Assembly: GCF_026571515.1 (NCBI RefSeq)
Contig: NW_026853413.1
Span: forward strand, 62,001 to 126,000
Reading direction: 5' to 3'
Source of the DNA: Ruditapes philippinarum
Lineage: Eukaryota
DNA length: 64,000 nucleotides
Below the pieces are notes generated by a model. The model was not told the origin of the DNA, searched no databases, and saw only the letters and a list, made by a program, of their open reading frames with translations. How positions within the stretch are numbered: position 1 is the first letter of the stretch; each line of letters starts with the position of its first letter. Shown here one piece after another: positions 3,726 through 55,590 of this stretch. The position numbers and the translations under genes are program-made.

Positions 3726-3774
3726 TTTATAAACACCTGTATTGACCGCTAGAAACATAGGTTCGTCCGGGGGT
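3726..3774 (-). promoter_or_regulatory. Putative G1 core promoter: CGAACCT motif + TATA box
   Basis: AGGTTCG on + at 3759-3765 and TATAAA on - at 3731-3726. The same arrangement occurs upstream of G3-G6. Confidence 0.6.
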
Positions 3775-5029
3775 ATTGTCAATATTCGAGACGACTATTG
3801 CCACATGCTAACCTTTCAAATAGACCACCAAGAGGTGCAATGTTTGTTTTCTTATTGTATAGAGCTCCTCGGAGATTTCGAGTTCACGCTTTACACAGAT
3901 TAGTGTTCAAAGTTTCACGACGTAAAATGTTTTACACTTTTTTATGATGACAGATTTATTGTATAAGAATAATGTCATAATGACAAGATATAGATTCCGA
4001 TACAATATAACTACGATTTTCTGTTTGTCATGCAAAATATTACTGCTTGTCTGTCTGTGATCGGCTCGGTGCCGTTTCAAAAATGACATGAAACTTTGTG
4101 GTTATTAAATTTGAAATATTTTTACCCTAGTAAAAATATATTATTTGTGTTTGTCTAATTCTATGAAAATTATGCCACATATTCTTTGACACTGATTGGA
4201 ATCATGGCCCTAAACGAGCAGATAACACTTAATATTTTGGGATAAAAGAGTCAGTTAATATATTATATAATAAGGTGTTTTATCAACATTTGAATATATC
4301 ATTTTTGCTTTATTTAAAAAAGCCAAAAAGGATAATCCATGCCCGAGATCACGGAGAGTCATCACGGTTATAGGAAAAGGTACACGAGGAATTGCCTCCT
4401 TGAATAATACGTGTATTTATAAATCTGTCTTATGTTTCGATCGGTTCAGCTGTCGTCTTTTATGTCATCATTTTGACCCAACGGAGCTCTATTGCACGTT
4501 GTGCATGCTGACATAAATTGCAAGTTTAAGATAAATAATGAATCCATATTGCCGTAATAAAGGCCATTGCATCTTAGAATGCTATCAGTAGTTCAAGATA
4601 TTTTGTAGAACAAGTTGTTTCTAGACGTAACAAAAGCGCACCTCAACACGATCCGATTAGAAAATGATTATTATAATATAAATGTTTTATTACCAGTCTG
4701 GACAACATATGATTAATCTTCTGCAGCTGATGCACAATATATCAAATTGTCCGTGTAAGGATTAATTACCTTCTTATGTGGCAAGTTTTGCAATTCATGG
4801 AGTGTCATCAGAATGTTTGTCAGCATAAATATTTATAGAAATATCATTATCAAGTTCGTTAAAATATTCTAATACCTAATTGATTTTGGCTGTTAAAACG
4901 TTTATGCGGAAAATGACTGGTTAGTTCCTTTTTTATGCATAAAACTAAATTTGAGATATGACTCTGACATAAAACGATACACAGTCCTCAAATAACTTGC
5001 ATTGCCATCACTACGGTGCTTCGCACCAA

Positions 5030-5272
5030 CACAATAAAAGCAAATGACGACTTTCCAGCTCAGCTGGTGGAGGAAGACTTTAGGTGCCCATTCGTGCATT
5101 ATTGCACTCACGAGCGATCACCTTAAAAAAGCCATCAACGTTCCGTAAAGCTAGTCGGATAGCTTCCGCACAAAAAAAGAATCAAAAGTCCATGGTGAGA
5201 TTCGAACCTTCAACGATGAGGTGCAAGTTTTTTTTAAATCAACAACCTTAACCACACCGCCGCGGACGCCCT
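5030..5272 (-). mobile_element. tRNA-derived SINE copy
   Basis: Reverse-complement similarity to 8344-8594 (GGGCGTCCGCGGCGGTGTGGTTAAGG head; GGTTCGAATCTC B box). Confidence 0.65.
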
Positions 5273-9516: not shown

Positions 9517-12500
9517 TCACACGGCTCCAATTTGCTGCTTCTGGTAGAAGGGTATCATTTTAGGATCAGTCCTGAACATGTCCCAACAATGCCAACACTC
9601 ACATGTCTGTGGTACTCGTATAGTTACCTGGAAAGGAATATAAATGGCTTTATATAATAAAATATCATTTAATGCAATAAATCAGATTGTTATCCAAAAG
9701 AATATAGTAAATGTGTATTAAATAGTATCCATCAAGTGTATAAATATTATTAAAAATATGATGTGAACAGATATGAATATAAGTCACAATAAATATTTTC
9801 AGTAAGACCATTCATTGTTTGTTATTTCCGTTATTTAAAATAGACTTAACATTATCTATATTTATTCTTATCTGTATCTTATTTTGTTGCGGCCTTAACT
9901 ATCTGTACATAACGACGGCAAACATAAAAAACAGTTTGAAAGCTACAGTGCATATATGACAATTTCATTTTTGAAAACTTTATATTCAATAAATGCTTTG
10001 ATATGATAAATGACACCAGCACAAATTAATTGTCATATTATATTTCCAATCATCAGAACTATCGCGTTAAAGAATGAATGTTACGGTATAATGTTGACTT
10101 GTCTATTTTGTTAAACTAATGTACATATATGAGTTTATATATTGCTTAGCCTATCTCTTTTACTTGTTGCNNNNNNNNNNNNNNNNNNNNNNNNNNNNNN
10201 NNNNNNNNNNNNNNNNNNNNNNNNNNNNNNNNNNNNNNNNNNNNNNNNNNNNNNNNNNNNNNNNNNNNNNNNNNNNNNNNNNNNNNNNNNNNNNNNNNTT
10301 AATTATCGAATTAAAATTCATATACTTAACATAATATTTCAAACAATGAAACTTTACCCATTTAAGACATAAATGTGGGGTTTTACTACAATTCACTTGT
10401 TCCACTTTTCCTCGAACAGTCCTGTAAGTCTTAATACAAAACACAAGGACTCTTTTTGGTATGAAATTATTCTCCAAACAAATAGAGTTGTTCACCTTAC
10501 AGAAAGGTGATCGAAATCTCTGGTCGCAAAAGTGGCTTTAAAAGATACATAAAAGTAAAATATAAATAGACATATAGGTTTCAATATAAAGTATTCACAT
10601 GTCTTTACTTAATATTGATACATAATTACCGTTTGAAATAAAATTTATCCTGGTATAAAGTATTGCAATCCTCGTATGAAATATTTCAATGTTTTAGTTT
10701 TTTACATGTATAAATGACACTTTTCCAAAAAAAAAAATATTTACATTATCAAACTTTAGTATATTCTTGACAAAAATATTAAACCAATCCCTAGAGTTTA
10801 CCATCTTGTTTGGAAAATATTGACGATTGAAGATGTCAAAGATGAGGTTTACTTATTTCATTGTAATCTAATTTTAGAAAAAAAGAGAAACAAACAAATA
10901 AAAAACCATAGTTTTCATTAAAAACTAACAAACCAACGAAAAGCACAATATAATAAAAATTCAGGTTAATTTAAACATGTATCTGTCAGACATGATAACA
11001 CAGAAAAAATGTGGGTTCAGAAAACCGGTACATATTTTTTATCTATCAATGGAGCATCGTTTTATTTTCACATAATAATTGTCCAGGTACAATTCTGAAC
11101 ATTTGTAAAAATAAGAGAGGTTTATCATCCAAATTTGAGAAAATACTGTACAGGTACAGATTAATTTACAAATATATCTTAATTCAAAATTTGTCAAGAA
11201 GAAAACCATTATTTAAGAAGCAGGAAAAAAACTAAAAAAGGATAAAAAATGACACCAGTAGATCTTGAATCAACGCGCCACGTAAACTCTGCATTTGGCA
11301 TCTATTACCTTAATATTGAACAAATGGGACTGTAAGTCTTAACAGTGTTGTTTTTACTAAAATCGTTTCACTTACGATGTACAGTTTACAATTCTGACTT
11401 GTTGTAGACATGGTTGCACGATGTAGCACGTTTCTGTATATCTCAAGTTGGTCCTAAATCTCCATGTAAACTTTCCCAGCCAAAACACTTCATATGGGCA
11501 TGATATCTGCCAATAATACCTCCTCATGTCTCTGTAACATTATTATATACATGAAGTTTAGTTAACAGTGTTTTCACTTTTATCATTAAAGTATTACATA
11601 TGCTAGGTAATGTCATACTGTATGTATGGGTATTGCGTTATGTTCTGTTATTTAATTGTTATTTTTATTACCGCCTCCGATGTATTTGTCCGTCTTTTCG
11701 CTAGCAGCCTTAACGCTGGCCATACATGTACAATTTTCAATGACAAAGTGTCATAATTGGCCAACCATATGTCTCAAATAGAGCTTCATTTTAATGAAAT
11801 AGGACATTTATTTATCAAGATATTGTGTTTTACATATACAAGTACCTACAATCATAGATGTATATAAATAATTGTATGATAATTTAGTCACGCCTGTAAT
11901 GAATTATTGTTCTGAAGTATGGGGATTTCACAAAGCTACTCATATCGAAAGAGCGCATCTTAGTTTTTGCAAGAGATTATTAGGTGTTGAAATAAGTTTT
12001 CAAAATGCATTTGTTTATGGTGAAACCGGAAAAATCTCTTATATTACTCATAGATATTTACATATAATACGGTACTGGTTAAAGTTATGTCAAAGTGATG
12101 ATGTTAAATATGCAAAGAAAATGTACACTGTTTTAAAAAGTGATCTTGAATCACATCCTAATCATATAAGTTGGGTATACTATGTACAAAGGCTATTATC
12201 TATATTAGGATTTTATGATGTTTGGTTAAACCAAGGAGTTGGTGATGTCAATATATTTTTGAATATTTTAAAGACACGATTGTACGATATAATTATACCA
12301 ACAGGACAGGAATGCAAGTTTATAGGCAAGTTTATAGGAATCATTATTATTTTACAGAACAATTTCTTTTTTTGATTGTTAGAATTATTTAAATGTTTTA
12401 ACTGTAGAAAAAAATAGAAAGTCAATGTCTAGATTGAGAGTGTCATCCCATAGGTTAGAAATTGAAACAGGCAGATACCTATAAGCACACCAATTGAACA

Positions 12501-15073
12501 TAGAAAATTTAAATTTTGCAATGCATTAGAGGATGAATATCATTATTGAGTGTACACTTTACGCTGAGCTCAGGCGTCAGTACATAAATAGAAATTACTG
12601 GGTTCATCCAAATTATATTAAATTTGTAGGGGTTATCAATGCCAATGTAGTCGAAATAAAGATGTTAGCAGCTTTTATTTACTATGCATTTGAAAAAAGA
12701 ATATTCCTCCAGTTTAAGAAAGACAAAGAGAAAGAAAGTATAACATGTCATGTATCATACATACGGTTTAATATTGAAGAGCTTTCTGCATATCCCACCT
12801 TTGCTGTTTTTCTTAAACTTTTTGGGGTAATTTCTTGCTTTCTTTACCATCTCAATACTAAAAGATACATTGATACAATAATACAATATGATTTGTAGCT
12901 TACCAGTTGTAGTTAATACTTAGAAGAAACAATAGTAAAACACAACCGGTTAACTACAGTGTTCCGACATATTAATTATAGCTGTATCTGTTTATATTGT
13001 TTTAAATATTTTACGAGTATAAAAAACAAAGAATTATTTACTTTTAGGATTTTACTTACAGTGAAGTCCACATTATTGGACACTAACCACTAACACACAA
13101 TTTAGCCTACGTGAATAAAAATGGTATTGTATCACTGTTGAGATAAGTTTTACTTCTTATTTACATAGTAGTTATTTAGGCCGAATCTTACACAAAGAAA
13201 TTGTCACTCACAGTTCTTGATAGATAAATTCTCCGTCAAAAGACAGAAAGTTAGAGGATTCTGTTGGTAATGGGTAACATTTATCTACACTGTCAGGATC
13301 ATCGTATTTATTGCTCGCTGCTACATCAGACATTGCAGATATATTTGCTGATAATCCGAGAGTAATTATCACAAGCAGAAATGAAATGCCAGCCTGGATT
13401 GAAAAGCAAATAAACAACGAATAACTGAATTTTGTAGAAACAATAGGTAAAAATGCTGACAATAGAAGATCTCTAAAGAAATATAAAGCAAAACAATAAT
13501 ACCAGTAAGTGTGCTCGCAAAAATGTTTATCATAGACAATAAAAATTTCAACATTAAGATGTATTTTATTCTCTACAATAAAAGTATATCACGATATACC
13601 GGGGAAAATATAAGATATTGGCCTTCATATACGTCACTCGATATGCTATAATAATCATTGCTTACAACTACTACAAATTTTGAGTTTTTTTGGGTTTTTG
13701 TGAGGTTTTTTTGTTTTGTTTTTTTTTTTGTTTTTTTTTTTTGGGGGGGGGGGGTTGTTATTGTTTTTTCTTTGGGGGTATTGTTATTATTGTTTTGTTG
13801 TTCTGAAATAAATATTTTGAAACTTTTACTTTATGTGTAAAACAATAATTGTCCTTGTAGACAGGTGATCGGACATTTTTCACTTCACCCATCATTGTTA
13901 TATTTTTCAAGTAAATGAATATCCACATGATTTGCAGTTGCATACGGTGGCATAGAGGTGACATTTGCACTTTTATTTTATCTCGTGGCCACGACTTATT
14001 ATCTTGAGGCCTCAAGATATTATCTCGTGGCCACGACTTATTATCTCGTGGCCACGACTTATTATCTTGTGGCCTCAAGATATTATCTCGTAGCCACGAG
14101 TTATAAACTTGTGGCGACGACTTATTATCTTGTGGCCACGACATATTATCTTGAGGCCACGACTTATTATCTCGTGGCCTCAAGATATTATCTCGTGGCC
14201 ACGACTTATTATCTCGTGGCCACGACTTATTATCTTGTGGCCTCAAGATATTATCTTGTGGCCACGAGTTATTATCTCGTGGCCACGACTTATCATATTG
14301 AGGCCACAACTTACTATATTGAGGCCACGACTTATTATCTCGTGGCCACGAGTTATTATCTTGTGGCCACAACTTATTTCAGCCAATGAAAATGGACGTT
14401 TCATCTTGAACAAAAGTTAATATCACTTATTTAATTGGCTGTAATAAGTCGTGGCCACAAGATGATAAGTCGTGGACACGAAATAATAAGTCGTGGCCAC
14501 AAGATAATAACTCGTGGCCACGAGATAATATCTTGAGGCCACAAGATAATAAGTCGCGGCCACGACATAATATCTTGAGGCCACAATATAATAAGTTGTG
14601 GCCACGAGATAATAAGTCGTGGCCACGAGATAATATCTTGAGGCCACGAGATAATAAGTCGTGGCCACAAGATAATAAGTCGTGGCCACAAGATAATAAC
14701 TCGTGGCCACGAGATAATAAGTCGTGGCCACGAGATAATAAGTCGTGGCCACAAGATAGTAACTCGTGGCCACGAGTCAATATCTTGTGGCCACGAGATA
14801 ATAAGTCGTGGCCACAAGATAATAAGTCGTGGCCACGAGATATTATCTTGAGGCCTCAAGATAATAAGTCGTGGCCACGAGATAAAATAAAACTGCAAAT
14901 GTCACCTCTATGCCACCGTAGTTGCATATGTCAAGTTCTCGTGCCTAGAAATTTATGTGCAAATTAAAGTCGTTATATTACAGGCATGGTTATTTTAGTT
15001 ATTATTTACTTTTTGTGCAAAAGATTTCAACTTACGTGTATTTGTTCTGTAATTATCATCATTATCATTATTA

Positions 15074-15132
<59 letters not shown>

Positions 15133-15163
15133 ATAATTTAGGTATGAACAAAGAACTCACCAT
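9517..15163 (-). CDS. G2: Spaetzle-like/cystine-knot secreted protein, subfamily A, 240 aa, intact
   Basis: Coding exons 15163-15161 (ATG), 13393-13212, 12857-12765, 11531-11376, 10535-10358, 9627-9517; all GT-AG, 723 nt in frame. MAGISFLLVIITLGLSANISAMSDVAASNKYDDPDSVDKCYPLPTESSNFLSFDGEFIYQELIEMVKKARNYPKKFKKNSKGGICRKLFNIKPDMRRYYWQISCPYEVFWLGKFTWRFRTNLRYTETCYIVQPCLQQVRIVNCTSHFCDQRFRSPFCKVNNSICLENNFIPKRVLVFCIKTYRTVRGKVEQVNCSKTPHLCLKWVTIRVPQTCECWHCWDMFRTDPKMIPFYQKQQIGAV*. The gene model is well supported; the family label is inferred from motif spacing. Confidence 0.88.
10171..10298. other. Assembly gap (N run) in the last intron of G2
   Basis: 128 N characters. Confidence 0.99.
11860..12715 (+). 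mobile_element. 5'-truncated non-LTR retrotransposon (LINE ORF2 C-terminus), degenerate, inside a G2 intron, antisense to G2
   Basis: The 11872-12375 translation carries LVTPVMNYCSEVWG..IERAHLSFCKRLLGV..VYGETG..IIRYWLKL. Downstream frames give RLRVSSHRLEIETGRY and CNALEDEY/IIECTLYAELRRQYI. These motifs are typical of the post-RT region of CR1/L2/RTEX-like LINEs. Frameshifted. Confidence 0.85.
13943..14920. mobile_element. Non-autonomous foldback DNA transposon (IS3EU-like) with inverted arrays of 21-bp repeats
   Basis: TIRs TACGGTGGCATAGAGGTGACATTTGCA / TGCAAATGTCACCTCTATGCCACCGTA; 6-bp TSD GTTGCA (13937-13942, 14921-14926). Each arm carries about 20 copies of TTATCTCGTGGCCACGACTTA, in opposite orientations. 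Confidence 0.88.
15052..15130. repeat. (ATT/ATC)n microsatellite
   Basis: Direct inspection; lies 30 bp into the intron after the G2 ATG exon. Confidence 0.95.
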
Positions 15164-18100
15164 AATGACCAACTTGATTTTCCTGTATTATGTAAAATGT
15201 ATGCCGGTAAATGCTTTTATAATTCATTCAGAGGCATTAAATGGTAAATTGCTCTATGATTATGATATAATATAATTAGAGGTTCTCCGAGTGTCAAAGA
15301 AAATCTGGTTAATATATGTAATAGGGATTTAATGAATTTCTTATTTCTGTCAATGTTTGTGTAAGCATTTAAATAAAATTAATGTTGAAAACAAATGTCT
15401 TTTTCAAAAGATAGAAAAACATATTGAAAAGACACACATCTCTACCAAAGTAATGAAGATTACTTTACGATTCAATAATATGTAACTAATGTACGTATAC
15501 TGCTATTCAATGATGGATCTCTACTTTTCAAATTTTATATAATCTTTTAAAAAAAAAACATGTAAAAACTAATTTGATGTGAAAACTTACCAAAATTAAA
15601 TATTATTCACCTTGAAATATATTTTATTTTAATTAACATGTATAAAAATCACAATATACATGTAGTTGCATGCTTTAGATGTCATTTTAACTTAAATGTT
15701 AACATCTAATGTTTCATTTTCAAAACCACGCGGTGAACCTCTCTGACTATAAAATTTATTTTAGTTGCTGGCAACATATGTCCTCCTATCTGCTTTTAAG
15801 TATGTATTATGATTAATTATCTATGATTAATTAAATCTGGTAAGAGGTTTGTTTATAAGATTACCTCCAAGGATTATGTTATAGGAACGAAAATTACGTA
15901 CTCGTACACGCTATCAATGGCAACTAATTCTTTTTACCACAAAACTTCATCAAGTTAGTACTTAAAAGTCCTGTCACCATTCGTATGATAAAACATTTCC
16001 ACACGATGTCTATTCAAGATAAACTTTCTCCTCAAGTAAACTATTTCTAGAAAATACCAAATCAAGAAGGACGTACCGCTTACAGTCTTGCCAACAGGAG
16101 CGCAACAATTAGATACAGTGTCAAGTCAAGGAAAACATAACCATTAAATAAAACATTTTCACAGAATGTCAAATTAATTGATAGCTTCTACATTGACATT
16201 TAAAGATATAGACTGTCAATGGTAGCAGTCTAATAATTTCTATTTCAAAGGTGCCATGTCTCTTCAAGTTGAAGCATATCTGAGTAGTCAAACTTATTTC
16301 ATACACTTCAAACACTAAGTTATAATTAAAGGCAAAAAAATGCAATCAGAAACGTTAAAATAAAGCTGGTTTAAGTAATTATCAATTAAAGATTAGCAAG
16401 TCAATATGCATAATGATAGGAATAATTACTTACTTAAGTTTTACGTTTTCCTTGTGGTTTTCAATGCTGTCTGCTTTATCTGCATGGCCTTAACTTCAGA
16501 CCCTTAATTGTGAACATCAATATTAATTTATACAGAGCTAGCATTTATGGTAAACTAGATATAAACTGATTTTAGGTAGAAAGCAAGGAACTATGATACC
16601 GATGCCAAGTTTTTCCTACACAAGTTTGAAATCATCTGGTAATACCCATAGAGACAACATGAAAGACACATCTGACTGTGGCATAGGTTACGATAGATAA
16701 TCCCTATTGTGGAAAAGTAAATCTCCTTCTAGTGTCAAACAAGAGCAGGGAATCATGTCTTACATGTCTATTCTTATTTGTTTATTGATATTCACAAGTG
16801 TTAATATATCTATTGTGAACTTGTTTTGATAATACACAAGCTGAACATTATTTGAATGTACAAGAATCTAATAGATAGAAGAGATAATGTAGTGGTTATG
16901 GTTAAGGTGTCTGCTTCTTAACCCAGAAATATTTGATTCCATTACATATCATAATGCGTATTTACACATGTAATAATACAGAAAAACAGAATTCTTAAAG
17001 ATAGCCCAACACGGCAAAATTTAAAATGTTGCAGGCTCGGTTTGACTGCGCCTGTACATGGACGGTACTGGTACTGTGCAAGTTACCGCCTACACCCGCT
17101 AGCACCGGCTTTAGCCGAATTCAACATTAACACACGAAAATGGTTAACACTTGAAGTTGAATTAAAGAATTTAATGAGTAATTTAAAAGGGTTGAATTAT
17201 CTAGTTTTAAAGATCGTAGGATAAAGTATAGCCGACTTTCCTTAAAAAAATATTTTGAAATATATTAATACAAAAACTATCCATAGCACCCGTGTTTGTT
17301 ACTTGGTTTTCTTGGATTTTAAGTTTCACCAACATTTAGGTAATGTGACAACTTACTGGTGAAAGAAGACCCCAAGACTTTTAATTAATAATGACAGACA
17401 TAATCTTTACTTCAACAAATAAGCATTCGAAATGACGCCAGTGTCATGATATGAAAAAATAAGTGAAGGTTTACTTTTAAAATATGACACACCAAATGCT
17501 GCTGTTTGGTTCGGGAGAAGTAGAATTTCATTTTTTTAATCTTTTTTGTTGTTTTTTTTTTGTTTTTTGTTTGTTTTTTTTGGTTTTTGTACTCCAGACT
17601 GCAATGTACCGAAACTATGTGAACATCTTTGGTAGAAATTCATGCAAATTTCATTTTTGGTCAAGTCCTTACCGAGCAGATGTCATTAGACACACATGAG
17701 GACGACGGACGGACGAATAGCCACCGGGCTCATAAGCTCGCCAGGTGAGTTGAGATTAATGATTTTAAGGTCTATGAATCATTCATACAATTTACCTTGT
17801 ATCTACAGAAGCAGCGGTTTTGTAAATGTCAGGGTCTAAACTGTAACCAAATCAGGTAAAAAGAATCACTGTTGCTTGGTGTATACTGTAACACTGAGAA
17901 ATTCACCTCGCTCTTTACTGTAACATTGTTTATTTATTCAAACGCGTTTGACGAAAAGGAAAATGGGTTCAACCGGTCATTTAACATAAACGTTTCTGAA
18001 CACAAACGATTAACGTTTTGTATGTTTAATTTTTGTAAACATGCTCAAATAATTTCAGAATGGTATACAAATGCGTTGTTTTTTTTAAACTGTCAAATAA

Positions 18101-23317: not shown

Positions 23318-23723
23318 TGTTGTTTAAGCTCTGAAATAAAATTAAATAATATATGTAAATAATATATTCTCCAAAATCATGTAAACTGATTATTTTGTGC
23401 TACAACTTTTGTTCATGTACCATGATATTGTTTTTCACTTATACTATACAAATGTTTGTAAAATGACTATGAACTAAATGTATACGTCAAAAAATTATCT
23501 ATTTATCTAATAAATCATATAATTTATCATTTTATTTAACAAAACTTTTGTTCACATAGTGCTAATACAGACAGCACTAAATCTTAATTCAAATTTCACT
23601 AATTTTAGGTTTGGTGTGCAAAAGACCTTTGTCTAGGTATATTTTTTTTCGTTAGCTGAAAAAAAACTAATATTTACCTGACCTGAGATTAAGCCAACAT
23701 TACAGATATGACAGTTAACTTTC

Positions 23724-23764
23724 TTTTTATATTGATTGTTGTCTCTCACCAGATGATAGGTTCG
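23724..23764 (-). promoter_or_regulatory. Putative G3 core promoter: CGAACCT motif + TATA box
   Basis: AGGTTCG at 23758-23764; TATAAAAA on - at 23731-23724; candidate donor CAG|gtaaat near 23677. Confidence 0.55.
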
Positions 23765-29019: not shown

Positions 29020-29053
<34 letters not shown>

Positions 29054-32063: not shown

Positions 32064-32118
32064 TTTTTATACCATACTGAAAATGTCAACGAAGGCTTAA
32101 CGAAGGTTCGTCTCGGGT
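32064..32118 (-). promoter_or_regulatory. Putative G4 core promoter: CGAACCT motif + TATA box
   Basis: AGGTTCGTC at 32104-32112; TATAAAAA on - at 32071-32064. Confidence 0.6.
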
Positions 32119-37972: not shown

Positions 37973-40900
37973 TTATTCTGGTGCAACTGCTTTTTCGTCG
38001 GTTAAAAGATGAGCACCTCGACACGACCAACATTCACAACATTGTGGTACAGATATAGTTACCTGAAATAAATAAAACCAACGTCGAGATAAATGGAACA
38101 ACGTTTAAAGTGAATTGCAATCTTTACTTGTTTTTGAAAAATATATTAACTAATATACAAACAAATAAATGTATTATAATAATAGCAACGAACCATGGAC
38201 AAAGTATTTGAAAAAAAGTATATCATGAGAACTTAAAAATGATGCCCTTTTCTTGAAGTTTTCATTTTTATTTGGAAAAAAAAAACTCAGTGTTGTTTCA
38301 AACTAAGTATTTCAATCATTTTGCCTTAGAAAAGTGCATTATATCACACTGTTAAGCCTTCTCCAAATCAGCGTTCCGAGAGCTATTTATAACAGTGACA
38401 TTGACATTCGTTTATACAGAAAGAAGATCGGGACACGAATCATCCATTTTACTATTTTACTTAAATAGCGCGAACCAGTAAATAAGAGGTATCGAGGGGT
38501 TTCTTTTTGTTTATATACTTTATTGACGTTAAATTTCTTTTTCCAACTAAATCATGTTGATAATGACAATAATATCAAACGATTTATTTAAAAATGACAT
38601 TAGACCTTTAGAAAAGCCGAAGACTGCTTTAATGATCATCTAAAAATAAAATGAAGCACTATTAACTGGTGTTTACAGAAACTGTTAATCTAAAAATAGA
38701 CTACAACTCAAAAACTTGCAACTATTTCCTCGACAAATTCAGTTGTTATTCTTAAAAGGAGTAAGAGAGGTGATTGGGGGAAAATATGTGCTAGTCATAC
38801 AATGACTCTACAACTTTTGCCACTGATCGGCTTATTTATTATTATAAGATATGTAACTACAACCATTTATATCGGATCTTTAAAACCTGCACGATACTCA
38901 CCATTTTGAGACAACGTTTTGGAAATTGCTTACGTGGGTTGTCCCAATATTATGTGACAAGATTGTTTAAAAGCTAGATAAAACAGGTACGAATTTGATA
39001 TTTTAATATGTTATAAACTTATATAATGTAAACATTTTCACAAATTTTCAAAGAAAAATATCAACAAACAACAAAAATATGCCATAAACACCATGGCATT
39101 TAACTGAATAGCAGCGCACGTCCAACGTCAAAAACGGCGTTTAATCTATATAAGGCGCCTTTCTCAAATACTCTTAATGGCTTTCAACGCAATAATGGTA
39201 CCAATAAATCGTCAATTTCTGTCTTAAATCATTTGGTTGTTAATGTCTGTTGAATGTTTGGATGGCATACATTAATTTTTTCAATACGCAAACTTCCGGT
39301 CTCGTTACACCTGTTTTTAGCTGTAGAAAATAGGCGACCAAGATCGGTCTTCCTATCCGTGTTTTCCTTACTTTAGCTTTTTGTAGCGCAAAACTTTGGT
39401 TCCGTTCATGCCTTTTGTACACAAATGCTCAGAATATGTTGCTAAACTGTTATATTTGGTATATTTGTTGAAAATCGTTACATGTGTCATCTGGAGATAG
39501 TCATGAAACCTGAGTGACATGTTCACTGCGCCGCAAATTCTTCGAACGTCGCCATTTTAACTTTCCTATTTTCTATGAGAAATGTTCATTTATCCGTAAC
39601 TTGTTCGTTTCTTAAGTTATTTAACTAAAATTTTCTGAGTTCATGTTAACATAGCAGCAGACATTGTGCAGACACATCATCAGATATTTGAAATATACGT
39701 AATTAATTTCAGCCTATTCATAACAAAATGTAAATTATTTGACGTGCGCCGGCAACTCAAACCAATGTCGTTAATACTGAAAATTTCTAAGTAACTAGAG
39801 GATTTTTTTGTAAATGATTTGTTGTAATGTTAAATAATAATCTTAACTGTTATATGTGTGAATTATTTTCTATTGGCGTTAAAAATGAACCGGCTATAAA
39901 ATTTGTCACGGACTTTTGGGACAACCCTCGTACAATCCACTCGTTCCCACATTCCAGTTGCCTGCCAGTATGTCCAAGGACAGAAGACGTAAATATCCTT
40001 ATATTGACGAAAATTAGTCTCACAACAAACAGAGTTAGTTATCTTGATAACATCTCTACATTGTGTCCGAGTGTTGCAATACGTGCTTGTTAAAGAAAAA
40101 ACTAATTGTAAAGTAGTTAAAAACAATGCAACTTGATGCTATTTGCGTAATACAAACATAACGTTGAGACGGATAATAAAAATGCATTAGGCGCGGCAAT
40201 GAATGTTGTCTCTTTTTAACTTTAACCCGCTCTTATTTTGTATAAAACAATAAATTATTATCGAGATGAATAGAATATTATCGCTAGAGGCTTGCATAAT
40301 ATAATTTTATTCAGATAGTTAACAAGTGTCTTTTTGAACCTAGGGTTAGGGTCCTCCACTTATCCAGTGCCGTCTATTTATGTATCCTAATGTTCCATAA
40401 GTGTATAAAAAATCAGATAATCTTATTGTGAAATAATCTAAAGTGAAACTGTAAAATCTAACAGTTTCATAGGGCAGTATATACCAAACAATGTTGTCCG
40501 ATATAAATGTAAACATCATTTTACTTATCTTAAGAATAAGCTTACGTTATACATTTGACAATCCGTACTTGTTGACAACATGGCCAGAGTACATAGCAGG
40601 TCTCTGAATAAATTGAACCGGGTATTTTCCATGAAAACTTGCCAAGCCACGACGCCTCATACGGACATGATGGTTGCCAGAAAAATAAAATTCTGAAACG
40701 TAAAAGAAATTAAACTTATTAAACATAGGTCTTTCTTTTGTGTGTTTTTGAATCAATGAAATAATCAGAATAATATTTTCTAAAACATTATTTAAGGCTT
40801 ATCTAGATTTAGTTTTTTATATGATATAGTGGACACTGTTTATGATAAAGTAAACATTTTGTATGTATGATATAGGGAATATTTTATATGATACAGTGAA

Positions 40901-43900
40901 CACTGTATATGATATATTGAATATTTTTATGGTAAAGTGAACTGATGTAATTTGTTTTAAATTTGGTGCTTGTATTCCGGTTTGTAATGTTGATAACCAA
41001 ATTTCTACAGACCAAAACGTCACCATGAGAAACTCCTTTGGTAAGTATTTAACAGTATAAGTACGGCAGGTACTATAAGGTTCCTGATATAATGCCTTTG
41101 TTGTTCGGATAAGGAAAATTAAGTGCATAGCTCTGGAGCATAGTCATGTCTGACGGACAATGTGTCAGGGCTTTTTGCAATTACAGGTGCAGCATTTGAA
41201 ATAATCAGATTAAAAAACAAGAATTAAGATCAACAAGGTAAATGCAACGTTCACATGAGTTTTAAACTGAGTTTGAAAACTTTAATTAATTTAATTTCAC
41301 TGTTTCAAAACTTATCATAAATATCCCATGGTTTATTTTTCTAAGCCCATGCTATCTTCTTGCGCTCTTTTTTCATTTCCATCTGCTGGACTTATTAAAC
41401 GAAAATTTGTTCTGCAGTTTTCAGATCAATAGGTGCATTGCTAAGCATACAATTCAAAGACGGAAATACTGTTGTATTTTATTATGATGTCGTAGATTTT
41501 TCTTTTTAGTACTTCATTGATTAAACATTCTGTATTTATAATTGTAAATATAACATGAAACATAAGAAAATATAAATAAAATACTCACGAGTTGTTGATG
41601 TCAGTTAGTTCATCATGTCCGTTAGCAGGACTCCATGGTAGTTCACAGTCTTATTTACATTGGAACTGGTTAAACAAAGCGGAGTCATCAATTGCTGACT
41701 TAACATATGGTCACCTGCAATAACAACAAACTTGGGTTGTAAATAAACATAAACAGTATATATTAGCAACGTTCTAGGACTTTGTAAATATAATTGTTAT
41801 TTATCAAGGGACTTTTATGACAATTAAATGGATTTCAATTGTACAAATGTAAGTACATGTAATAGATTACTAGTTGCTAGGTTAGAGATTTACGTATCTC
41901 TGGCGATCATACATCGATGGATGTACCATAAGTTTTACTTAAAAGATTTACATATTCTGCATTTGTATATACTAGTAATGACCACAATATATCGAAAACA
42001 AATTCTGGCAACATTTTTACCTTTAATTAGTATATCTTCATTTATAAATGCAAAACACAATGTTATAAAGTTACCATTCAGCGGGGAGAGTAGCATTGTC
42101 CCATCTTCTGAAAGGATTAGATGGATTAGGTAATGGTTTTGGACCACACGGAGTGGTGTTGCTGGGATCATCATATACAATCACACCCTGACACCGATAC
42201 ACAGTAGAATTACTATCGTCTTGAACTGTTTGAAAGAAGAAAGTCAATGATAAGGTAAAACTGCTGATTATGTCTTGCAAGTTGACTAGCTGTTTTATTT
42301 TTTCTGTTTGGACATAAATTCCAATCACACTGAGATCAATGAGCCCTTGACTGACGGAAATTTACCAATACAATACGGACATGAAAGCCACTCCGAGGGG
42401 TAGTGTTGCCACGGTCTAAAAGAGGTCACATAATTTTGTTCAGCCTTTGTTACCAAAAACAACTTTATTATTGATAATGCTCTATAGAATAAAAAATGTA
42501 TTTGTAACTACTTTATGAAAAAATGCTCCATTAAAAACATTGTATTTGTTAGTCACTTATAAGAAAAGTAATATTAACGATATAAACAGGCGTTTTAAGA
42601 CAAGGCATTAAAGAGACACCATCGAGCTTTTGGCATAACGGGACGGAAAATAATTTTTATGAGCTTTTTGCATACCGTGTGTTGTAGTTTGGACCACTAA
42701 CTTTAGTGCAAAATTTCAGACACTCACTTACCCCATTTTTTCCAGAATGATCATTTCAATCGTGCACAATTGATAGATCCCTAATCTGACTGTTCGTTTG
42801 AATAATAATACATTTAACCACAAACATTGATATATGCTCTTTTGTTAACAAATAGGCTGTGGTGAAAATCTTATTGTATCCACTAATCTGATCATTAGTA
42901 TTGGAAAGATCAGGGATCTATGCATTACCCAAACAATTATCTTAAGCATTTTTGTTTCAAATTTGGAGTATGCAAAAGGTATACTTATATATTGAAGTTA
43001 TTCATTTAATTGCAGCCAGTTTTGACCAGTTTCAGCAGAGTATTTTGCTAAATATCAGGGTAATTGAGATACCTAACATGTTTGTGTTTCTTTTATATAC
43101 TTGTTCATGCAGGTAAACTCATTTCGTAGGATAATATACACCAATGTAAAAATACTTGTTTTGCTACACTACCCTAACCTTACTTGGGAACAGTTATGAT
43201 CACAAAATATTTCTATTGAAAGATGAGCGTTGTTTAATTCGAGTATAATGCACCAGCTAATCTACATAATTCGTGCAATGATATTTTCATTTTGATCTGT
43301 CTCGAGCTGAAAAAAATGTCACTCGCTAGTTTGTTAAGTATATTAATATGTTGTCAAGTTGAATTTTAAAAGATAAAGGAAGGATTTGCTTTAGTTTCAT
43401 TTTAGATAGATATGACAAGAGTTACTGGCAGTAAATTGCAAATAAACGCCGCTTTATAAGGTTGCAAAATACTGTTTCAGTCCCAGAGTTTACTATCAAT
43501 AAATGATGAGAAAAAAAGACAAGACTTTATTAAAGCTTTTGAGGTAAACTATTTAAGCAATTTGTAACTTTTTAACATAAGATTTTATTAAAACGACGTT
43601 GTTAACATTTTAGTATTTCATTTACAAAATTACGGTGTAATAAAAAAGACAACATAAACACATCAAAGATACATGTTAAGCTTAATGCTGGATAGTTAAT
43701 TTTCATTATTGTAAATGTTGTTCTCTTTTATTCTGTTTTTTTTTAATGTTAAAGAGGATTTCGCTAGTTTATTCGCCCTAATCATTCGCACTAGGCTTAC
43801 GACAGACAGTCGTTTGAATAAAACGTTTGACGAAAACTAAATTTAAAAATGTTAACATGAATATAGTATATTTAGTACATTTTATGTTCTTACCATATAC

Positions 43901-44155
43901 AGATGGATATTTTAATAATAGTAATAGTGTGTGATAGTTTCTGTGTTTGTACTCTAAATATTTAGCTGAACTTTCGGTGAATACGTTTTCTGGTAAAAGT
44001 GTTAGATTTCATTATATTATATAAAATAATGTAAGGAATTAATTTAAAACTGAAGCTCGATGGTCCATTGTTTGAGGTTCAAACTAAGACTTCAAATGTT
44101 TGATTTATTTAACAAATATAATTTGAATAGGTTTTTCAATAAAAGCACTTACCAT
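37973..44155 (-). pseudogene. G5: pseudogenised, chimeric copy of the Spaetzle-like gene (coding exons are G6-like)
   Basis: Exons 44155-44153; 42225-42075 (151 nt vs 194 nt in G6, frameshift, TGA at 42183-42181); 41714-41589 (in-frame TGA 41713-41711 and TAA 41653-41651); 40692-40546; 40085-38902 (split by a transposon at 38933-39930); 38062-37973 (VTISVPQCCECWSCRGAH...). Confidence 0.9.
38933..39930. mobile_element. Tc1/mariner-like non-autonomous element inserted in G5 exon 5
   Basis: Imperfect TIRs CG(T/A)GGGTTGTCCCAA..GTGACAA; TA duplicated on both sides. The paralogous site in G6 (51209-51210) has a single TA. Possible HTH remnant (RKTRIGRP) on the minus strand near 39340. Confidence 0.88.
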
Positions 44156-44428
44156 AATGCTTGCTGCTTTTGTCTGGAATATAAAACACATCTATTTTGT
44201 TTCGTTTATATTTACAATTGACAAGTTATTAGGGAAATAAAACAATAAATAATTATCCAATATGTATGAGATAACTTTACATAATACTTTTATAATAAGA
44301 AATTGTTACGCATAATTTTTTAATAATATATCAAATAAGTAAAGTATTAAATTCCTCAGAAAGGTAAACAAAATTGTTTATTTTACCGTTAATTGCTTTA
44401 ATAACACAACGAAGATAAATTTCGTCTG

Positions 44429-44482
44429 TTTATAAACACCTGCATTGACAAATTACACGTAAGCATAGGTTCGTCCAGGGGT
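44429..44482 (-). promoter_or_regulatory. Putative promoter upstream of G5 (G1-like)
   Basis: AGGTTCGTCC at 44467-44476; TATAAA on - at 44434-44429; flanks align to 3690-3790. Confidence 0.55.
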
Positions 44483-48445: not shown

Positions 48446-48540
48446 ACTCACTCACTCACACACTCACTCACTCACTCACTCACTCACTCACCAACGCATT
48501 CACTCACTCACTCACTCACGCATTCACTCACTCACTCACT
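48446..48540. repeat. (ACTC)n microsatellite
   Basis: Direct inspection; absent from the paralogous block near 35300. Confidence 0.95.
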
Positions 48541-50535: not shown

Positions 50536-53500
50536 TTATCCACGAGTGTTGATTGGTTTTGCATCTCTACCTGGTTTTTCAGCTGGGGCTGGTTTTACAT
50601 GTTCAACTGGTTTTTCGTCGGTTAGTTGATGTATATGATGAGCACCTCGACATGACCAACATTCACAACATTGTGGTACAGATATAGTTACCTGAAATAA
50701 TCAACGCCATGATAAATAGATCAACGTTTAAATAAATAACAATCTTCACTTGTGTTTGAACAAATATAATAACACATATACAAACAATTCTATTTATTAT
50801 AATAATATAACTATAACCATGGAAAAAGTATATGCAAAATTATAATATGAGAAATTAAAAATGTTGCACTTTTCTTAAAAATTATCTAAAAGTAAAATGA
50901 AACATATTTAATGGTGTTTCACAAACTATTAATTTGAAAATAGACAAGAACCCAAAACGTTTATCTATGTCGTCGACAAATTCAGTTGTTATTCTTAAAA
51001 TAAGTAAAAAAAGAAGGTGACTGAGAAAAAAGTATATATGCTGGTCATACTTCGACACTAAGTATAATCGTGACAAGAGAAAAACATTTGCTCTACAACT
51101 TATAATTGTATCCCCCCCACCCCCGGATATGTAATTACAACAGAATATATCGCAGCTTCATAAATTACAAGATACTTACCAGTTTGAGACAACGTTTTGG
51201 AAACCTCTTACAATCCACTCGTTCCCACTTTCCATTTTCCTGCCAGTATGTGGATGGACAGAAGACGTAAATGTCCTTATGTTGACGAAAATTAGTCTCG
51301 CAACAAACAGAGTTAGCTATCTTCAGATTATCACTACAGTGTGTCCGTGTCATACAATTCGTTCTTTGTAAAGAAATATTGTATTGTAGTATAAAAGTAG
51401 TGTTAAAACAACGCAACGTGACGTCGTTTGCGTAATACAAGCATAACGTCAAAACGCAGTATAAAAATGATGTAGATGCTTTAAACCGTTCTTATTTTAG
51501 ATATGTGATAAATAGAATATTATTGCCAGGGGCTTTCATGATATATAATATAATTCATTCAGCTGGTTCAATAAATTTTCTATTGAACCTACATGCATGC
51601 ATCCAATACAATTGTTTAATGTCAATAATTGTATAATAAAAAAATCTGAAAATTTTCAGACGTGAAATTATAGAATTTAACCTGTTTATAGGGCAGTATA
51701 AACCGATGACAACATGGGCAAAGCTGGTCGAAATAAATGTAAATATCATTTTACTTATCCTAAAAATAAACTTACGTGGTACATTTGACAATCCGGACTT
51801 GTTGACAACATGGCCAGAGTAAAAAACAGGTCTCCCTTAAACGGGTTGAACCTGGTATTTCCCACGTAAAGCTGCCAAGCCACGACGCCTCATACGGACA
51901 TGATGATTGCCAGAAAAAGAAAATTTTCTTGTCTAGCCTGAAATGTTAACAATGGTTCATAGATCTTTTCCTTGAACTGCTGTGATTTTTGTGTGACTGT
52001 GTTTGAATTGATAAAAATAATCATATAATAAAAGCAAACATCTATTTCAGGCTCATATAGATTTTGTTGTTTTATACGATATATAATTAACACTCCATTC
52101 TTTATTCTCTAGTCGTTATCTCATAGTTTTATATGATATAGTGAACACTTCATAATATGAGCCGCGTCACGACAAAACCAGCATAATGGGTTTGCAACCA
52201 ACATGGATCCAGACCAGCCTGCGCACCCGCGCAGTCTGATCAGGATCCATGTTGTTCGCTATCAGTTGCTCTACTTGTAATAGAGTTGGTAAGCGAACAG
52301 CATGGATCCTGATCAGACTGCGCGGATGCACAGGCTGGTCTGGATCCATGTTGGTCGCAAGCCCATTATGTTGGTTTTGTCGTGACGCGGCTCATATGTT
52401 CTCTTGTCATTATATCGTAGTTTTTTCTATAATAAAATAAACTTTTCATACTATATTCTCTCGTCATTGTATCTTAGTTTTATAAGTAAACTTGAGTACA
52501 ATATCAAACACCAGAATTAAAGTTGTTTTTCAAATTTTTTTCTGAAATTAACATTTCATTAGCAGGAGAAATGTTTTGTCCTTTCATTACAGAGATGTTC
52601 GCAATATAACAGTTGTCACTGCTGTCTTCTATTTGCAAATAACTTCATGGATTACAACACATTGCTGTTAGAAGTAATTTGTTTAAATATGTTACAAATG
52701 ATAAATAATTTGAAGTCAAGATTTTAACCATCCTGTACTCCTTTGTTTCGAGAAAAACATGTCTGCATTTGTCAGTCAGAATCTATATTATACTTGTTGC
52801 TAGTTTACCGGTTTGTATTGGAGATACATAGGTATTTTCATTCATTATAACATATGTACAAAAGGTGCATTTAAATAAAAATAATGTCACCGCTTATATA
52901 AAGAAGAAGAAGAATCTTATATTGCACATTAACTCTCAAAAGAGTTATCTACAAGCTTTCATTTGATATATACAATTACATGTATGCATAAGTAAATAAA
53001 ATATTACATAGCAAGATGTGAAAGTCATACAGCAAGCATTTCAACAGTAAAAGTACGGCAGCTATTAAAAGGTTCTTGATATAATGATTTTATTATTCGG
53101 ATATAGAAATTAATTAAATTGCAAAGCTCTGAAAACTAATAACAGCTCACGGGCAAAGTATCAGGGTTGTTTGCAATTACCGGTTCAACATGTGAAATGA
53201 TTAGATTAAACCGAGTTTAAAACCTTGTTGTTTTCATTATTCATCTCCACTGCTCTTTAAAATAATCTCTTAACTAAGTTTTCTTCATGCTGTCATTTTT
53301 ATTTCCGGCTGCCTCTCGTAGCCTTACATTGAACGAAATTTCTATATCAAAGGAGCATTGTCAGGCATAAAGACCAAAGTTGGTGGTAACCCTGTGGTAT
53401 TTTATCATGTTGCCGTAGAGTTTCTATTAACTACTTTATTTATAAAATTCCTGACATGTTTTATATATATATCTTTTTGTTTTGTTATTATTTAAGGGTT

Positions 53501-55335
53501 GAAATTTACAAATTACTGTATAATTTAATGAATTATACATTTGTAAATCAAACAATTTATCAGAAGTAAAACTCACGATTTGGTGATGTCATGTTCATCA
53601 TGTTCGTTGGCAGGGCTCCATGGTGGTTCACAGCCTTCACTACGTGGGAACTGGGTAAACCAAGCAGAATCGTCACTTGCTAACGTAACATGTGGCCACC
53701 TAACAACAAGCATGGGTTGTAAATAAACTTAACAGTATAAAACAGCAATGTTCTTGAGCTTTGTAAATATAATTTTTATTTTAAAGATGAATTTGATTAA
53801 TGTTTAATGGATTTCAAGTGTACAAATGTTAGTAAAAGATAACTCGTTGTAGATTTTACGTATCCATATAGCTATCTTACATTGATGGACCATAGGCAAA
53901 CACATACTGCCATTGCTTATACTAGTTATGATTATAAAACAATGTATAGTAAAACAAATTTTTGCAACATTTTTACTTTTTAAATTAGCATATCTTGTTT
54001 TATAAATGCAAAACACAGCATTATGTAATTACCATTCAGCGGATAGTGTAGCATTGTCCCAGTTTATGAAAGGATTAGATGGATTAGGTAATGGTTTTGG
54101 ACCACACGGAGTGGTGTTGCTAGGATCCACATATACAATCGCACCCTTTTCGTCTGCGGCGGTTTCTGCTTCCGACTGACAACGACACACAACTAGATTC
54201 ACAAGTACGATTACAATAGTCTTGAACTGTTTTAAAAAAGAAAATCAATGATTTGGTAAAACCGCTGATTATGTCTTACAAATTAACTAGCTTTATTATT
54301 TTTTTGAGGGGTGGGGTTGGGGGAGGATCAAAACCATACATTCTAAGATCAGTGTGCATAACGTTTGCTTCCTTGACTGACGTTAATTTACCGATACAAT
54401 ACGGCGAGGGTAAGTGTGTCCACTGACTTATATAGGCCACATAAGCTAACCAACAAACTATTTTCATTGATAATGCTATGTATATAATTATGTTTTTGTG
54501 GCTACAATTGGATATATAATGTTGAATTATGAAATTAACAAATGTTGCTGTGTTAATGATAAAATTTATCAGATGTAACCAAAGAAATAAGCATTGTTTT
54601 ATGTTTTATCTTTGAATGATCTAACTATATTGAAATGTTCATAGTTCAGCTATCCAAAATTGTAATGATGTAACTGATGTCCTGAAAGCATTCATAAATT
54701 CTCCCCATGCATAGTAATGGAGTTACTATATTATAAGTTAATGCGCCTCAAAATGGTTTACTCTTATATGATAAACAGTCATGTTGTTGAAATGAAATGA
54801 GCCGCGTCACGACAAAACCAACAAAGTGCGCGCAGTCTGATCAGGATCCATGCTGTTCGCTTACAAAGTCTATATATATCAAGTAGAGAAACTGATAGCG
54901 AACAGCATGGATCCTGATCAGACTGCGCGGATGCGCAGGCTGGTCTGGATCCATGCTGTTCGCAAACCCATTATGTTGGTTTTGTCGTGACGCGGCTCAA
55001 ATCTATATTATAAGGTCATACAGATATTGTCGATTTTAACGGTTGCTGCAATTAAAGGGAGATAATTAACAAATCATTTTCATAAATGTTTTGACTATTC
55101 TGCAACAGAATGGAATGTATTTCATTTTTTAAGTAAACTATAATCAATAAAAGCAATTATCAATAAATAATAACAATCTTGTATGTTTATGTGTATTTTT
55201 CTAAACGGAATCCGTATATTTACTTTATCCTGTACTTTGTTGTAAATTGTTTAACAATTAATTTGATTTCATGCTTAACATCAGAAAGATATCGTTATCA
55301 CTAAAATTTCTTACCATTTTGATACCGTGTGCCAT
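50536..55335 (-). CDS. G6: Spaetzle-like/cystine-knot secreted protein, subfamily B, ~273-279 aa, intact
   Basis: Exons 55335-55315 (MAHGIKM), 54226-54033 (FKTIVIVLVNLVVCRCQ...PCGPKP...AEW), 53699-53577, 51937-51776 (LDKKIFFFWQSSCPYEASWLGSF...ETCFLLWPCCQQVRIVKCT), 51363-51180 (TNCMTRTHC...VCCETNFRQHKDIYVFCP...DCKRFPKRCLKL), 50691-50536 (VTISVPQCCECWSCRGAHHIHQLTDEKPVEHVKPAPAEKPGRDAKPINTRG*). GT-AG, 840 nt in frame. Confidence 0.88.
52159..52393. mobile_element. Palindromic MITE (Sola-like), copy 1
   Basis: GAGCCGCGTCACGACAAAACC...GGTTTTGTCGTGACGCGGCTC, about 100-bp arms; 4-bp TSD ATAT. Confidence 0.88.
54799..54998. mobile_element. Palindromic MITE (Sola-like), copy 2 (left arm internally deleted)
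   Basis: Same termini as copy 1; 4-bp TSD AAAT. Confidence 0.88.
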
Positions 55336-55536
55336 TCCTGAAATGAAATTCAGAAGAAAAAGATATATAGAAATATATCACATTTTATCAGGCTTCATCT
55401 CCAATTTAAGTTTTGCTATACTGCAATTTGCATTGTTCGAATTTACATTTGTTACAATATGTTACACACATATAATGTCTATCCTCTTACCTATTCATAT
55501 AATATACGTGAAACGATCTTATTCTGTGTTTTAACC

Positions 55537-55590
55537 TTATATATGTATAGAAAACTGAAGAATATGAAAATGTAGGTTCGTCAAGGGGTT
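55537..55590 (-). promoter_or_regulatory. Putative G6 core promoter: CGAACCT motif + TATA box
   Basis: AGGTTCGTC at 55574-55582; TATATAA on - at 55543-55537; candidate donor TAG|gtaaga near 55490. Confidence 0.55.

What the first reader, a model, noticed from the sequence alone, without database searches (positions are those of the whole stretch)
3726..55590. Shared promoter module: CGAACCT 26-32 nt upstream of a TATA box in five of six paralogues
Seen: AGGTTCG on + at 3759, 23758, 32104, 44467 and 55574, each 26-32 nt from a minus-strand TATA (first base 3731, 23731, 32071, 44434, 55543) and 260-450 nt upstream of the ATG mini-exon. It persists where flanking DNA is not alignable (G3, G4, G6); four copies extend to AGGTTCGTC followed by a G-rich run. 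No convincing copy was found for G2. G1 and G5 are not independent because their upstream regions are homologous. Inference: a transcription-factor site co-regulating the array, loosely resembling a nuclear-receptor half-site; G2 may be regulated differently.
Basis: partly seen in the sequence, partly recalled or inferred. Interest (0 to 1): 0.7.

Follow-up and report, generated by a model that had tools for sequence, protein, structure and literature searches.

The report
Clam cytokine-gene array shares promoter element
Five of six duplicated Manila clam genes for predicted secreted signalling proteins keep the same seven-letter DNA word just upstream of their TATA box although most of the surrounding DNA has diverged, so it is likely a binding site for one shared, still unidentified gene-activating protein (possibly a nuclear hormone receptor pair), an ordinary kind of control element that appears to be private to this gene cluster.

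Summary
CGAACCT lies 26-32 nt upstream of a TATA box in G1, G3, G4, G5 and G6 of a six-gene Ruditapes philippinarum array of predicted Spaetzle/NGF/Noggin-like cystine-knot proteins. It is the only 7-mer shared at a fixed position by the four independent promoters. Chance gave this in at most 1 of 40,000 trials, and silent sites between G3, G4 and G6 are near saturation, so neutral descent is unlikely. A GT donor follows each TATA at +47 to +57. A spliced G3 RNA contig begins 44 nt below the TATA; no start site was mapped. Genome-wide, motif+TATA is not enriched once one transposon family is removed, so the module is local. New here: the element fits a degenerate DR4 repeat (GGTTCG-N4-GRGKNN) in all five promoters (p about 0.005, post hoc), but the invariant final G departs from the nuclear-receptor consensus. 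G1 carries a G5-type promoter on a G2/G3-type body and lacks its signal exon; reference G5 is broken, while one run holds an apparently intact G5-like transcript. Verdict: a real, probably selected transcription-factor site of a known kind; factor and co-regulation untested.

The parts
3759..3774 (-). G1 element ACCC-N3-GACGAACCT (core CGAACCT 3759-3765)
3726..3731 (-). G1 TATAAA; candidate GT donor 47 nt below (3684)
3500..3520 (-). G1 ATG mini-exon (G5-type); G1 body continues at 1586-1497, at 60 and beyond the window; no signal-peptide exon found between 3480 and 1600
15881..15892 (-). G2 best TATA-linked candidate TTTCGTTCCTAT, 25 nt before TATAAA (15857); 2.7 bits, no donor within 75 nt; not accepted as a copy
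9520..15182 (-). G2 gene, ATG mini-exon 15161-15182 to last exon; open frame
23758..23775 (-). G3 element: CGAACCT with upstream TGACTCA (AP-1-like by recalled consensus; also the second half-site of the DR4 reading)
23726..23731 (-). G3 TATAAA; GT donor at +54 (23677)
23579..23687 (-). Transcribed non-coding 5' stretch of G3 in a spliced RNA contig (run X2, record 6), joined through a mini-exon-like piece to the exon at 21810
18467..23330 (-). G3 gene, open frame, spliced contigs in X2
32104..32118 (-). G4 element ACCC-N2-GACGAACCT
32066..32071 (-). G4 TATAAA; GT donor at +57 (32014)
31999..32005 (+). Second, inverted CGAACCT (ACGAACCTT) just inside the predicted first intron of G4
28401..31830 (-). 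G4 gene = XP_060580001.1 (LOC132736806), spliced contigs in X1 and X2 including the mini-exon joint
44467..44482 (-). G5 element ACCC-N3-GACGAACCT (homologous to G1)
44429..44434 (-). G5 TATAAA; GT donor at +48 (44386)
38005..44173 (-). G5 gene; reference allele has a frame break in the signal exon, two stops in the next exon and a split later exon
55574..55589 (-). G6 element ACCC-N3-GACGAACCT
55538..55543 (-). G6 TATATA(A); GT donor at +53 (55490)
50539..55337 (-). G6 gene, open frame (annotated in part as LOC132736816); mini-exon 55315-55337 spliced to the next exon in run X3

Best explanation
CGAACCT (GACGAACCT with an ACCC block in four copies) sits 26-32 nt upstream of the TATA box in five paralogues and is likely a proximal-promoter binding site, kept by purifying selection, for one sequence-specific activator that would help load the TATA-binding complex and start a predicted short non-coding first exon that is spliced to the ATG mini-exon. 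Shown: the motif, its spacing, the donor at +47 to +57, near-saturation of silent sites, spliced transcripts of G3, G4 and G6, and no genome-wide enrichment. Inferred: selection, protein binding, activation, the start site. The single most likely named reader is an RXR-type nuclear-receptor pair on a degenerate DR4 (plus strand GGTTCG-N4-GRGKNN), which I put at about 0.3; other factors together take the rest. The 6-nt spread in spacing is half a helical turn, so a rigid contact with TFIID is unlikely (inference).
For: Only shared positioned 7-mer among four independent promoters; nulls 1, 0 and 0 of 40,000. Four-fold sites identical at 7 of 20 (G3-G4), 12 of 23 (G3-G6), 16 of 37 (G4-G6), against 33 of 38 for G5-G6. 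No blastn match between the G3, G4 and G6 promoters; 120-nt flanks align at z -0.7 to 2.3 for these pairs. ACCC-N2-4-GACGAACCT has 20 matches in 1.4 Gb, 4 in this array; 4 of 4 array matches and 0 of 16 others have a TATA at 25-32 nt. Donor at +47 to +57 in 5 of 5. Spliced G3 contig begins at 23687; G6 mini-exon joint in X3. DR4 is the best of 44 arrangements, 19 of 24 consensus matches over four lineages, p 0.0021 and 0.0065/0.0044 with local composition kept. Oyster RAR bound a DR4-type element of a tyrosinase promoter in yeast (PMC9656583, passages).
Against: No start site was mapped: neither lay found a place where many molecules begin, and no contig was laid on the predicted first exon of G4, G5 or G6. 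The G3 contig runs past the predicted first donor (23677) to about 23579. No orthologous promoter from another species could be read. G2 has an open frame but no copy. Two of the five copies stand before broken genes in this assembly (G1, G5). For the receptor reading: the half-site ends in G in 5 of 5 copies while the consensus (A/G)G(G/T)(G/T)(G/C)A ends in A; the invariant stretch includes two spacer bases in four copies while the second half-site varies; spacer 4 is not favoured genome-wide (8 of 70 matches, 3 of them in this array); the receptor idea was chosen after seeing the motif.
Confidence: 0.78

Rival explanations
1. The site is real and selected, but it is read by a factor other than a nuclear receptor (for example a zinc-finger protein reading GACGAACCT, with the ACCC block or the G3 TGACTCA as separate neighbouring sites). 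This is a variant of the best explanation, not its opposite.
For: Invariant CpG-containing core and variable G-rich flank; second inverted ACGAACCTT near G4 without any second half-site test passing there; no DR4 excess genome-wide.
Against: The phase of the G-rich flank fits DR4 better than shuffles, and G3, which lacks the ACCC block, still has a 5-of-6 half-site at spacer 4.
Confidence: 0.45
2. Neutral leftover: the word survives from the common ancestor or was spread by gene conversion or promoter shuffling between paralogues, without function.
For: Promoter shuffling did occur: G1 has a G5-type 5' region on a G2/G3-type body, and a G5 intron matches DNA upstream of the G6 promoter. The 25 nt upstream of the core still align between G1/G5 and G6 (0 of 2000 controls) and G1 and G4 (0.0065).
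Against: Silent sites between G3, G4 and G6 are near saturation; G3 shares only the core (flank p 0.25-0.95); conversion needs flanking homology that is absent.
Confidence: 0.1
3. The module was donated by a transposon: a young 5.8-kb element carries GACGAACCT 25 nt before TATAAA.
For: 72 of the first 100 listed genome matches (hand count) are this element; its 120 nt upstream align with G3 and G6 at p about 0.002 against genomic controls and 0.008-0.01 against block shuffles.
Against: No downstream similarity; no signal at 250 nt; three-way identity 27 columns against 24.9 +/- 3.0 in shuffles; unrelated motif loci reach a score of 4 against 8; copies are 90-99% alike, hence young, while the promoters are old; G4 and G6 promoter DNA searches found only themselves.
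Confidence: 0.04
4. It is a general clam core-promoter element that works with TATA at many genes.
For: Fixed orientation and narrow spacing in the array.
Against: Outside the array and the transposon, 24 of the first 100 listed matches remain against 26 matches in total for the inverted motif; motif+TATA+donor has 4 outside matches against 10 for the backwards control, none with an ATG mini-exon within 600 nt.
Confidence: 0.04

Closest known systems
Nuclear-receptor direct repeat DR4 (RXR heterodimer elements); consensus half-site (A/G)G(G/T)(G/T)(G/C)A as given in PMC9656583; oyster Tyr-2 element bound by CgRAR in yeast; amphioxus THR:RXR on DR4 (PMC10083991, passage)
   Same: Two half-site-like hexamers in direct repeat with a 4-nt spacer in all five promoters; 5+5 of 6 matches in G1, G3, G4, G5 and 5+4 in G6.
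   Different: First half-site always ends in G (GGTTCG); no copy has a perfect half-site at spacer 4; conservation spills into the spacer; binding untested.
Locusta jhp21 juvenile-hormone response element GAGGTTCGAG(A/T)CCT(T/C), as quoted in PMC8435907 (passage; original paper not seen)
   Same: Contains the same 7-mer AGGTTCG.
   Different: It is a partial palindrome continuing with A, like the tRNA B-box context; the clam copies continue with T or G and a G-rich run.
tRNA/SINE B-box GGTTCGA (consensus recalled)
   Same: Shares GGTTCG; explains 6 of 8 non-promoter copies in 104 kb.
   Different: All five promoter copies have T or G after GGTTCG; no tRNA-like or Rfam match at gathering level in the window.
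Cystine-knot growth factors Spaetzle, NGF, Trunk/PTTH, Noggin, IL-17 (for the genes; family overview in PMC11087794, passages)
   Same: Hydrophobic N-terminus, cysteine-rich beta-strand C-terminal half ending in C-C-x-C; nearest ESM Atlas clusters carry Noggin, Spaetzle, NGF or IL17 (score up to 0.91); weak fold matches include IL-17, coagulogen, NGF, Noggin and Spaetzle.
   Different: No Pfam family at E up to 10; fold matches are weak (Z 4.0 or less, best row a cystatin; model pLDDT 60); sequence relatives found only in Ruditapes, Mya, Dreissena and two unnamed records.

Membership tests
Proximal-promoter element of a TATA-type RNA polymerase II promoter | TATA box at a fixed short distance, followed by a first exon and splice donor | tested here: met
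   TATAWA 26-32 nt below the motif and a GT donor 47-57 nt below the TATA in 5 of 5; transcribed 5' stretch for G3
Proximal-promoter element of a TATA-type RNA polymerase II promoter | Start site mapped about 30 nt below the TATA | tested here: inconclusive
   G3 contig starts 14 nt below the expected start, but contigs cannot show starts; raw reads too shallow; nothing laid on first exons of G4-G6
Proximal-promoter element of a TATA-type RNA polymerase II promoter | Conserved above neutral expectation | tested here: met
Proximal-promoter element of a TATA-type RNA polymerase II promoter | Protein binding and effect on transcription | not testable with these tools
   needs footprinting, gel shift or reporter assay
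Nuclear-receptor DR4 element | Two directly repeated half-sites 4 nt apart | tested here: met
   best of 44 arrangements, p 0.002-0.0065; degenerate in every copy
Nuclear-receptor DR4 element | Half-site matches (A/G)G(G/T)(G/T)(G/C)A including the final A | tested here: not met
   GGTTCG in 5 of 5; second half-sites 4-5 of 6
Nuclear-receptor DR4 element | Bound by an RXR heterodimer | not testable with these tools
   no binding assay
tRNA/SINE B-box | GGTTCGA within a tRNA-like sequence | tested here: not met
   0 of 5 promoter copies; no Rfam match
Heat-shock element (nGAAn repeats, consensus recalled) | Inverted nGAAn units | tested here: not met
   GAAnnTTC only in G4, 1 of 5
Genome-wide core-promoter module | Motif+TATA pairing enriched over controls across the genome | tested here: not met
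Transposon-derived promoter | Flanks homologous to a transposon on both sides | tested here: not met
   weak upstream similarity for G3 and G6 only, not supported three-way
Spaetzle/NGF-type cystine-knot proteins (the genes) | Family profile match | tested here: not met
   no Pfam family for P0001 or six single exons above cut-off
Spaetzle/NGF-type cystine-knot proteins (the genes) | Cystine-knot fold | tested here: inconclusive
   Atlas features point to Noggin/Spaetzle/NGF; own model pLDDT 60, matches Z 4.0 or less

The most novel reading that the evidence does not exclude
A clam nuclear-receptor pair (RXR with a thyroid-, retinoic-acid- or NR1J-type partner) reads a non-canonical CpG-ending DR4 (GGTTCG-N4-GRGKNN) and through it switches on a clam-lineage family of Spaetzle/NGF-like secreted factors, giving a natural hormone-receptor target element in a mollusc and a direct link from small-molecule signalling to a cystine-knot cytokine array whose members have swapped promoters.
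Probability: 0.25. Interest if true: 0.62.

Novelty: new member of a known kind. Interest (0 to 1): 0.36.

Why it matters
Conserved proximal elements among tandem paralogues are an ordinary kind of feature, so the class is not new. This one is unusually clean: a 7-9 nt word kept over near-saturated divergence gives a ready probe for finding the factor that controls an uncharacterised clam family of predicted cystine-knot signals. If the DR4 reading holds, it would add a natural nuclear-receptor target in a bivalve, where the papers read here describe few, and it could bear on how hormones or pollutants reach these genes.

Tried and rejected
Literature: no paper on this motif or these genes surfaced (3 of 3 listed; 15 of 1,294 listed; 3 of 3; 1 of 1; 3 of 4; 12 of 134; 12 of 12) or 70 (15 of 310); no supplements were opened. 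Earlier scan findings: nothing bearing on this. The run search listed no holder on record as RNA; X1, X2, X3 and X6 are guessed to be RNA, and their contigs are spliced at intron ends. Raw-read runs X21 and X23 were too shallow on these genes to show joints or starts. Missing cover on first exons of G4-G6 is not evidence of absence. A G4-like hit on contig C7644 (L014) shares a separate repeat with G4's far upstream DNA, but its motif lies in a LINE-ORF1-like frame (label recalled) and the flanks do not align. Three C6581 hits lie in coding frames of acetyltransferase-like paralogues (label from reading the frame, no family search). Six outside look-alikes of the DR4 form had no TATA (0 of 6). 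A metagenome scan for another copy of the G6 signal exon gave one weak, unrelated locus. No genomes of related species were available for orthologous promoters. No further paralogue was found outside this contig at E up to 0.05 (one exon-sized hit on C7325 at E 0.086 was not followed). Foldseek gave no match at E 0.001. NF-kB-like, Six-like, ROR-like, Pax-like and IRF-like readings were considered from recalled consensus only; each fits one or two lineages or breaks an invariant base, and none was tested against a motif library.
Full report
Setting. The window is from Ruditapes philippinarum: one G4 exon is 100% identical to XP_060580001.1. Six minus-strand paralogues, G1-G6, were rebuilt from splice signals. 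Three protein searches of the own genome found significant matches only on this contig. The proteins have a hydrophobic N-terminus and a cysteine-rich C-terminal half. Pfam gives no family. The nearest ESM Atlas clusters are Noggin-, Spaetzle-, NGF- and IL17-like. My own model was of middling quality (pLDDT 60) and its fold matches are weak. I therefore call them predicted cystine-knot signals. Relatives occur in Mya and Dreissena; G4, G5 and G6 form a supported clade, and the rest is unresolved.

Observation. All five motif coordinates, the TATA positions, the 26-32 nt gaps and the distances to the ATG are as stated. G1 and G5 share collinear upstream DNA, leaving four independent promoters. 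CGAACCT is the only 7-mer these four share within a 7-nt spread in the 100 nt above the TATA. With 1,122 random TATA-anchored sequences from 361 kb (real promoters and sequences bearing the motif removed), any shared 7-mer appeared in 1 of 40,000 draws for 4 of 5 and 0 of 40,000 for 4 of 4; shuffles of the real promoters gave 0 of 40,000. G2 has no convincing copy. Of 8 other copies in 104 kb, 6 are in a B-box-like GGTTCGA context and one is an inverted copy just below the G4 TATA.

Descent or selection. The promoters are paralogous, so the real null is neutral descent. Four-fold sites in the three shared C-terminal exons are identical at 7 of 20 (G3-G4), 12 of 23 (G3-G6), 16 of 37 (G4-G6) and 8 of 29 (G1-G3), against 33 of 38 for G5-G6. 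Flanks of G3, G4 and G6 do not align. The 25 nt above the core still align among G1/G5, G6 and, more weakly, G4, because of the ACCC block; G3 shares only the core. An exact 7-mer at a fixed place is thus best read as selection. This is an inference: no orthologous promoter could be read.

Are these the promoters? Each TATA is followed by a GT donor at +47, +54, +57, +48 and +53. In run X2 a spliced G3 contig covers 23687-23579 and joins through a mini-exon-like piece to the signal exon. It begins 44 nt below the TATA, 14 nt below the expected start, but it runs past the predicted first donor, and contigs cannot show starts. G4 contigs in X1 and X2 stop within 2-3 letters of the mini-exon acceptor. 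This fits short first exons but does not locate them. Spliced contigs of G3, G4 and G6 all occur in X2; that shows presence in one run, not co-regulation.

Genome-wide test. ACCC-N2-4-GACGAACCT has 20 matches in 1.4 Gb (backwards control 42); 4 are in the array and only these 4 have a TATA at 25-32 nt. GACGAACCT-N25-32-TATAWA has 127 matches (control 71); by hand count 72 of the first 100 listed are one transposon family, 4 are the array and 24 are others; 27 were not listed. The inverted motif gives 26. Motif+TATA+donor gives 8 matches, 4 in the array, control 10 (the pattern excludes G4 by design). The patterns were drawn from the array, so its own matches are expected; the point is that nothing else is enriched. 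The module is local.

Which factor. Scored against the half-site consensus quoted in PMC9656583 (passages), the best of 44 spacings and orientations is a direct repeat with a 4-nt spacer: GGTTCG then GGGGTA (G1, G5), GAGTCA (G3), GGGTGC (G4), GGGGTT (G6). Random DNA reached this in 0.0021 of 20,000 trials, and shuffles that keep local composition in 0.0065 and 0.0044. Against it: the first half-site ends in G in every copy, though a single change would give the consensus; the conserved stretch includes spacer bases; spacer 4 is not favoured genome-wide (hand count 13, 12, 8, 16, 4, 8, 9 for spacers 2-8); and the idea was chosen after the fact. I give it about 0.3. A locust juvenile-hormone element holds the same 7-mer (PMC8435907, passage) but in a palindromic, B-box-like context. 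PMC10083991 and PMC5398557 (passages) confirm that invertebrate RXR pairs bind direct repeats; PMC11087794 (passages) was used for the cystine-knot families. Other papers were seen as search listings only.

Transposon rival. A young 5.8-kb element with terminal inverted repeats and TA flanks carries GACGAACCT 25 nt before TATAAA. Its upstream 120 nt align weakly with G3 and G6 (p 0.002-0.01), but not at 250 nt, not downstream and not three-way. I treat this as probable chance.

History of the array. G1 has a G5-type promoter, mini-exon and intron on a G2/G3-type body; no signal exon was found, and the mini-exon joined to the next exon is out of frame. NCBI's G1 protein also starts in that next exon. 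A G5 intron matches DNA upstream of the G6 promoter, so G5 is probably a mosaic. Reference G5 is broken, but run X6 holds a spliced G5-like contig with 13 more letters in the signal exon and other letters at both stop positions, so an intact allele or further paralogue likely exists. Promoter shuffling is therefore real here, and it is why G1 and G5 count once.

Verdict. The element is probably a selected transcription-factor site in active promoters, private to this array. It is a new member of a known kind; the factor, the start sites and co-regulation remain untested. Interest 0.36; 0.62 if the non-canonical DR4 reading proves true (probability about 0.25).

Noticed in passing
window 2791-5824 vs 43553-46617; G1 body from 1586 to beyond the window start: G1 is a chimera: G5-type promoter, mini-exon and intron on a G2/G3-type coding body, with no signal-peptide exon found.
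   Followed up: partly
window 38005-44173: Reference G5 has a frame break, two stops and a split exon, while run X6 holds a spliced, apparently intact G5-like contig: a polymorphic pseudogene or a further paralogue.
   Followed up: partly
window 42646-42770 vs 55878-55993; 46648-47260 vs 16154-16691; 48253-50879 vs 35087-38257: Mosaic of duplicated intergenic blocks; a G5 intron matches DNA upstream of the G6 promoter, suggesting loss or gain of a 1.2-kb promoter segment.
   Followed up: partly
L063 about 3496-9330 (motif-strand coordinates); L064-L066: Young 5.8-kb repeat with terminal inverted repeats starting CAGTAGGGTGAACGT, TA flanks, internal tandem repeats and no long frame in L063; it carries GACGAACCT 25 nt before TATAAA about 560 nt from one end.
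   Followed up: partly
window 31999-32005 (+) and 15735-15740: Inverted copy of the core just inside the predicted first intron of G4; an AGGTTCA 117 nt below the G2 candidate TATA.
   Followed up: no
window 23769-23775: TGACTCA (AP-1-like, consensus recalled) directly upstream of the G3 core.
   Followed up: no
window 15592-15611: Possible extra non-coding mini-exon with a strong GTAAGT donor upstream of the G2 ATG exon; the G2 promoter is unresolved.
   Followed up: partly
L011-L013 (G000:C6581): Tandem array of at least three acetyltransferase-like genes (label from reading the frame).
   Followed up: no
window 13943-14920: Long inverted tandem array of about 21-nt units in the G2 intron.
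   Followed up: no
window 11872-12375 (+): Retrotransposon-like reading-frame remnant (label recalled; no Pfam match) in a G2 intron.
   Followed up: no
window 62169-62435 (+): Exon resembling N-acetylglucosamine-6-phosphate deacetylase (label recalled; no Pfam match for the single exon).
   Followed up: no
G000:C7325:31775-31927: Weak exon-sized match to the Mya homologue (E 0.086); possible distant relative of the family.
   Followed up: no
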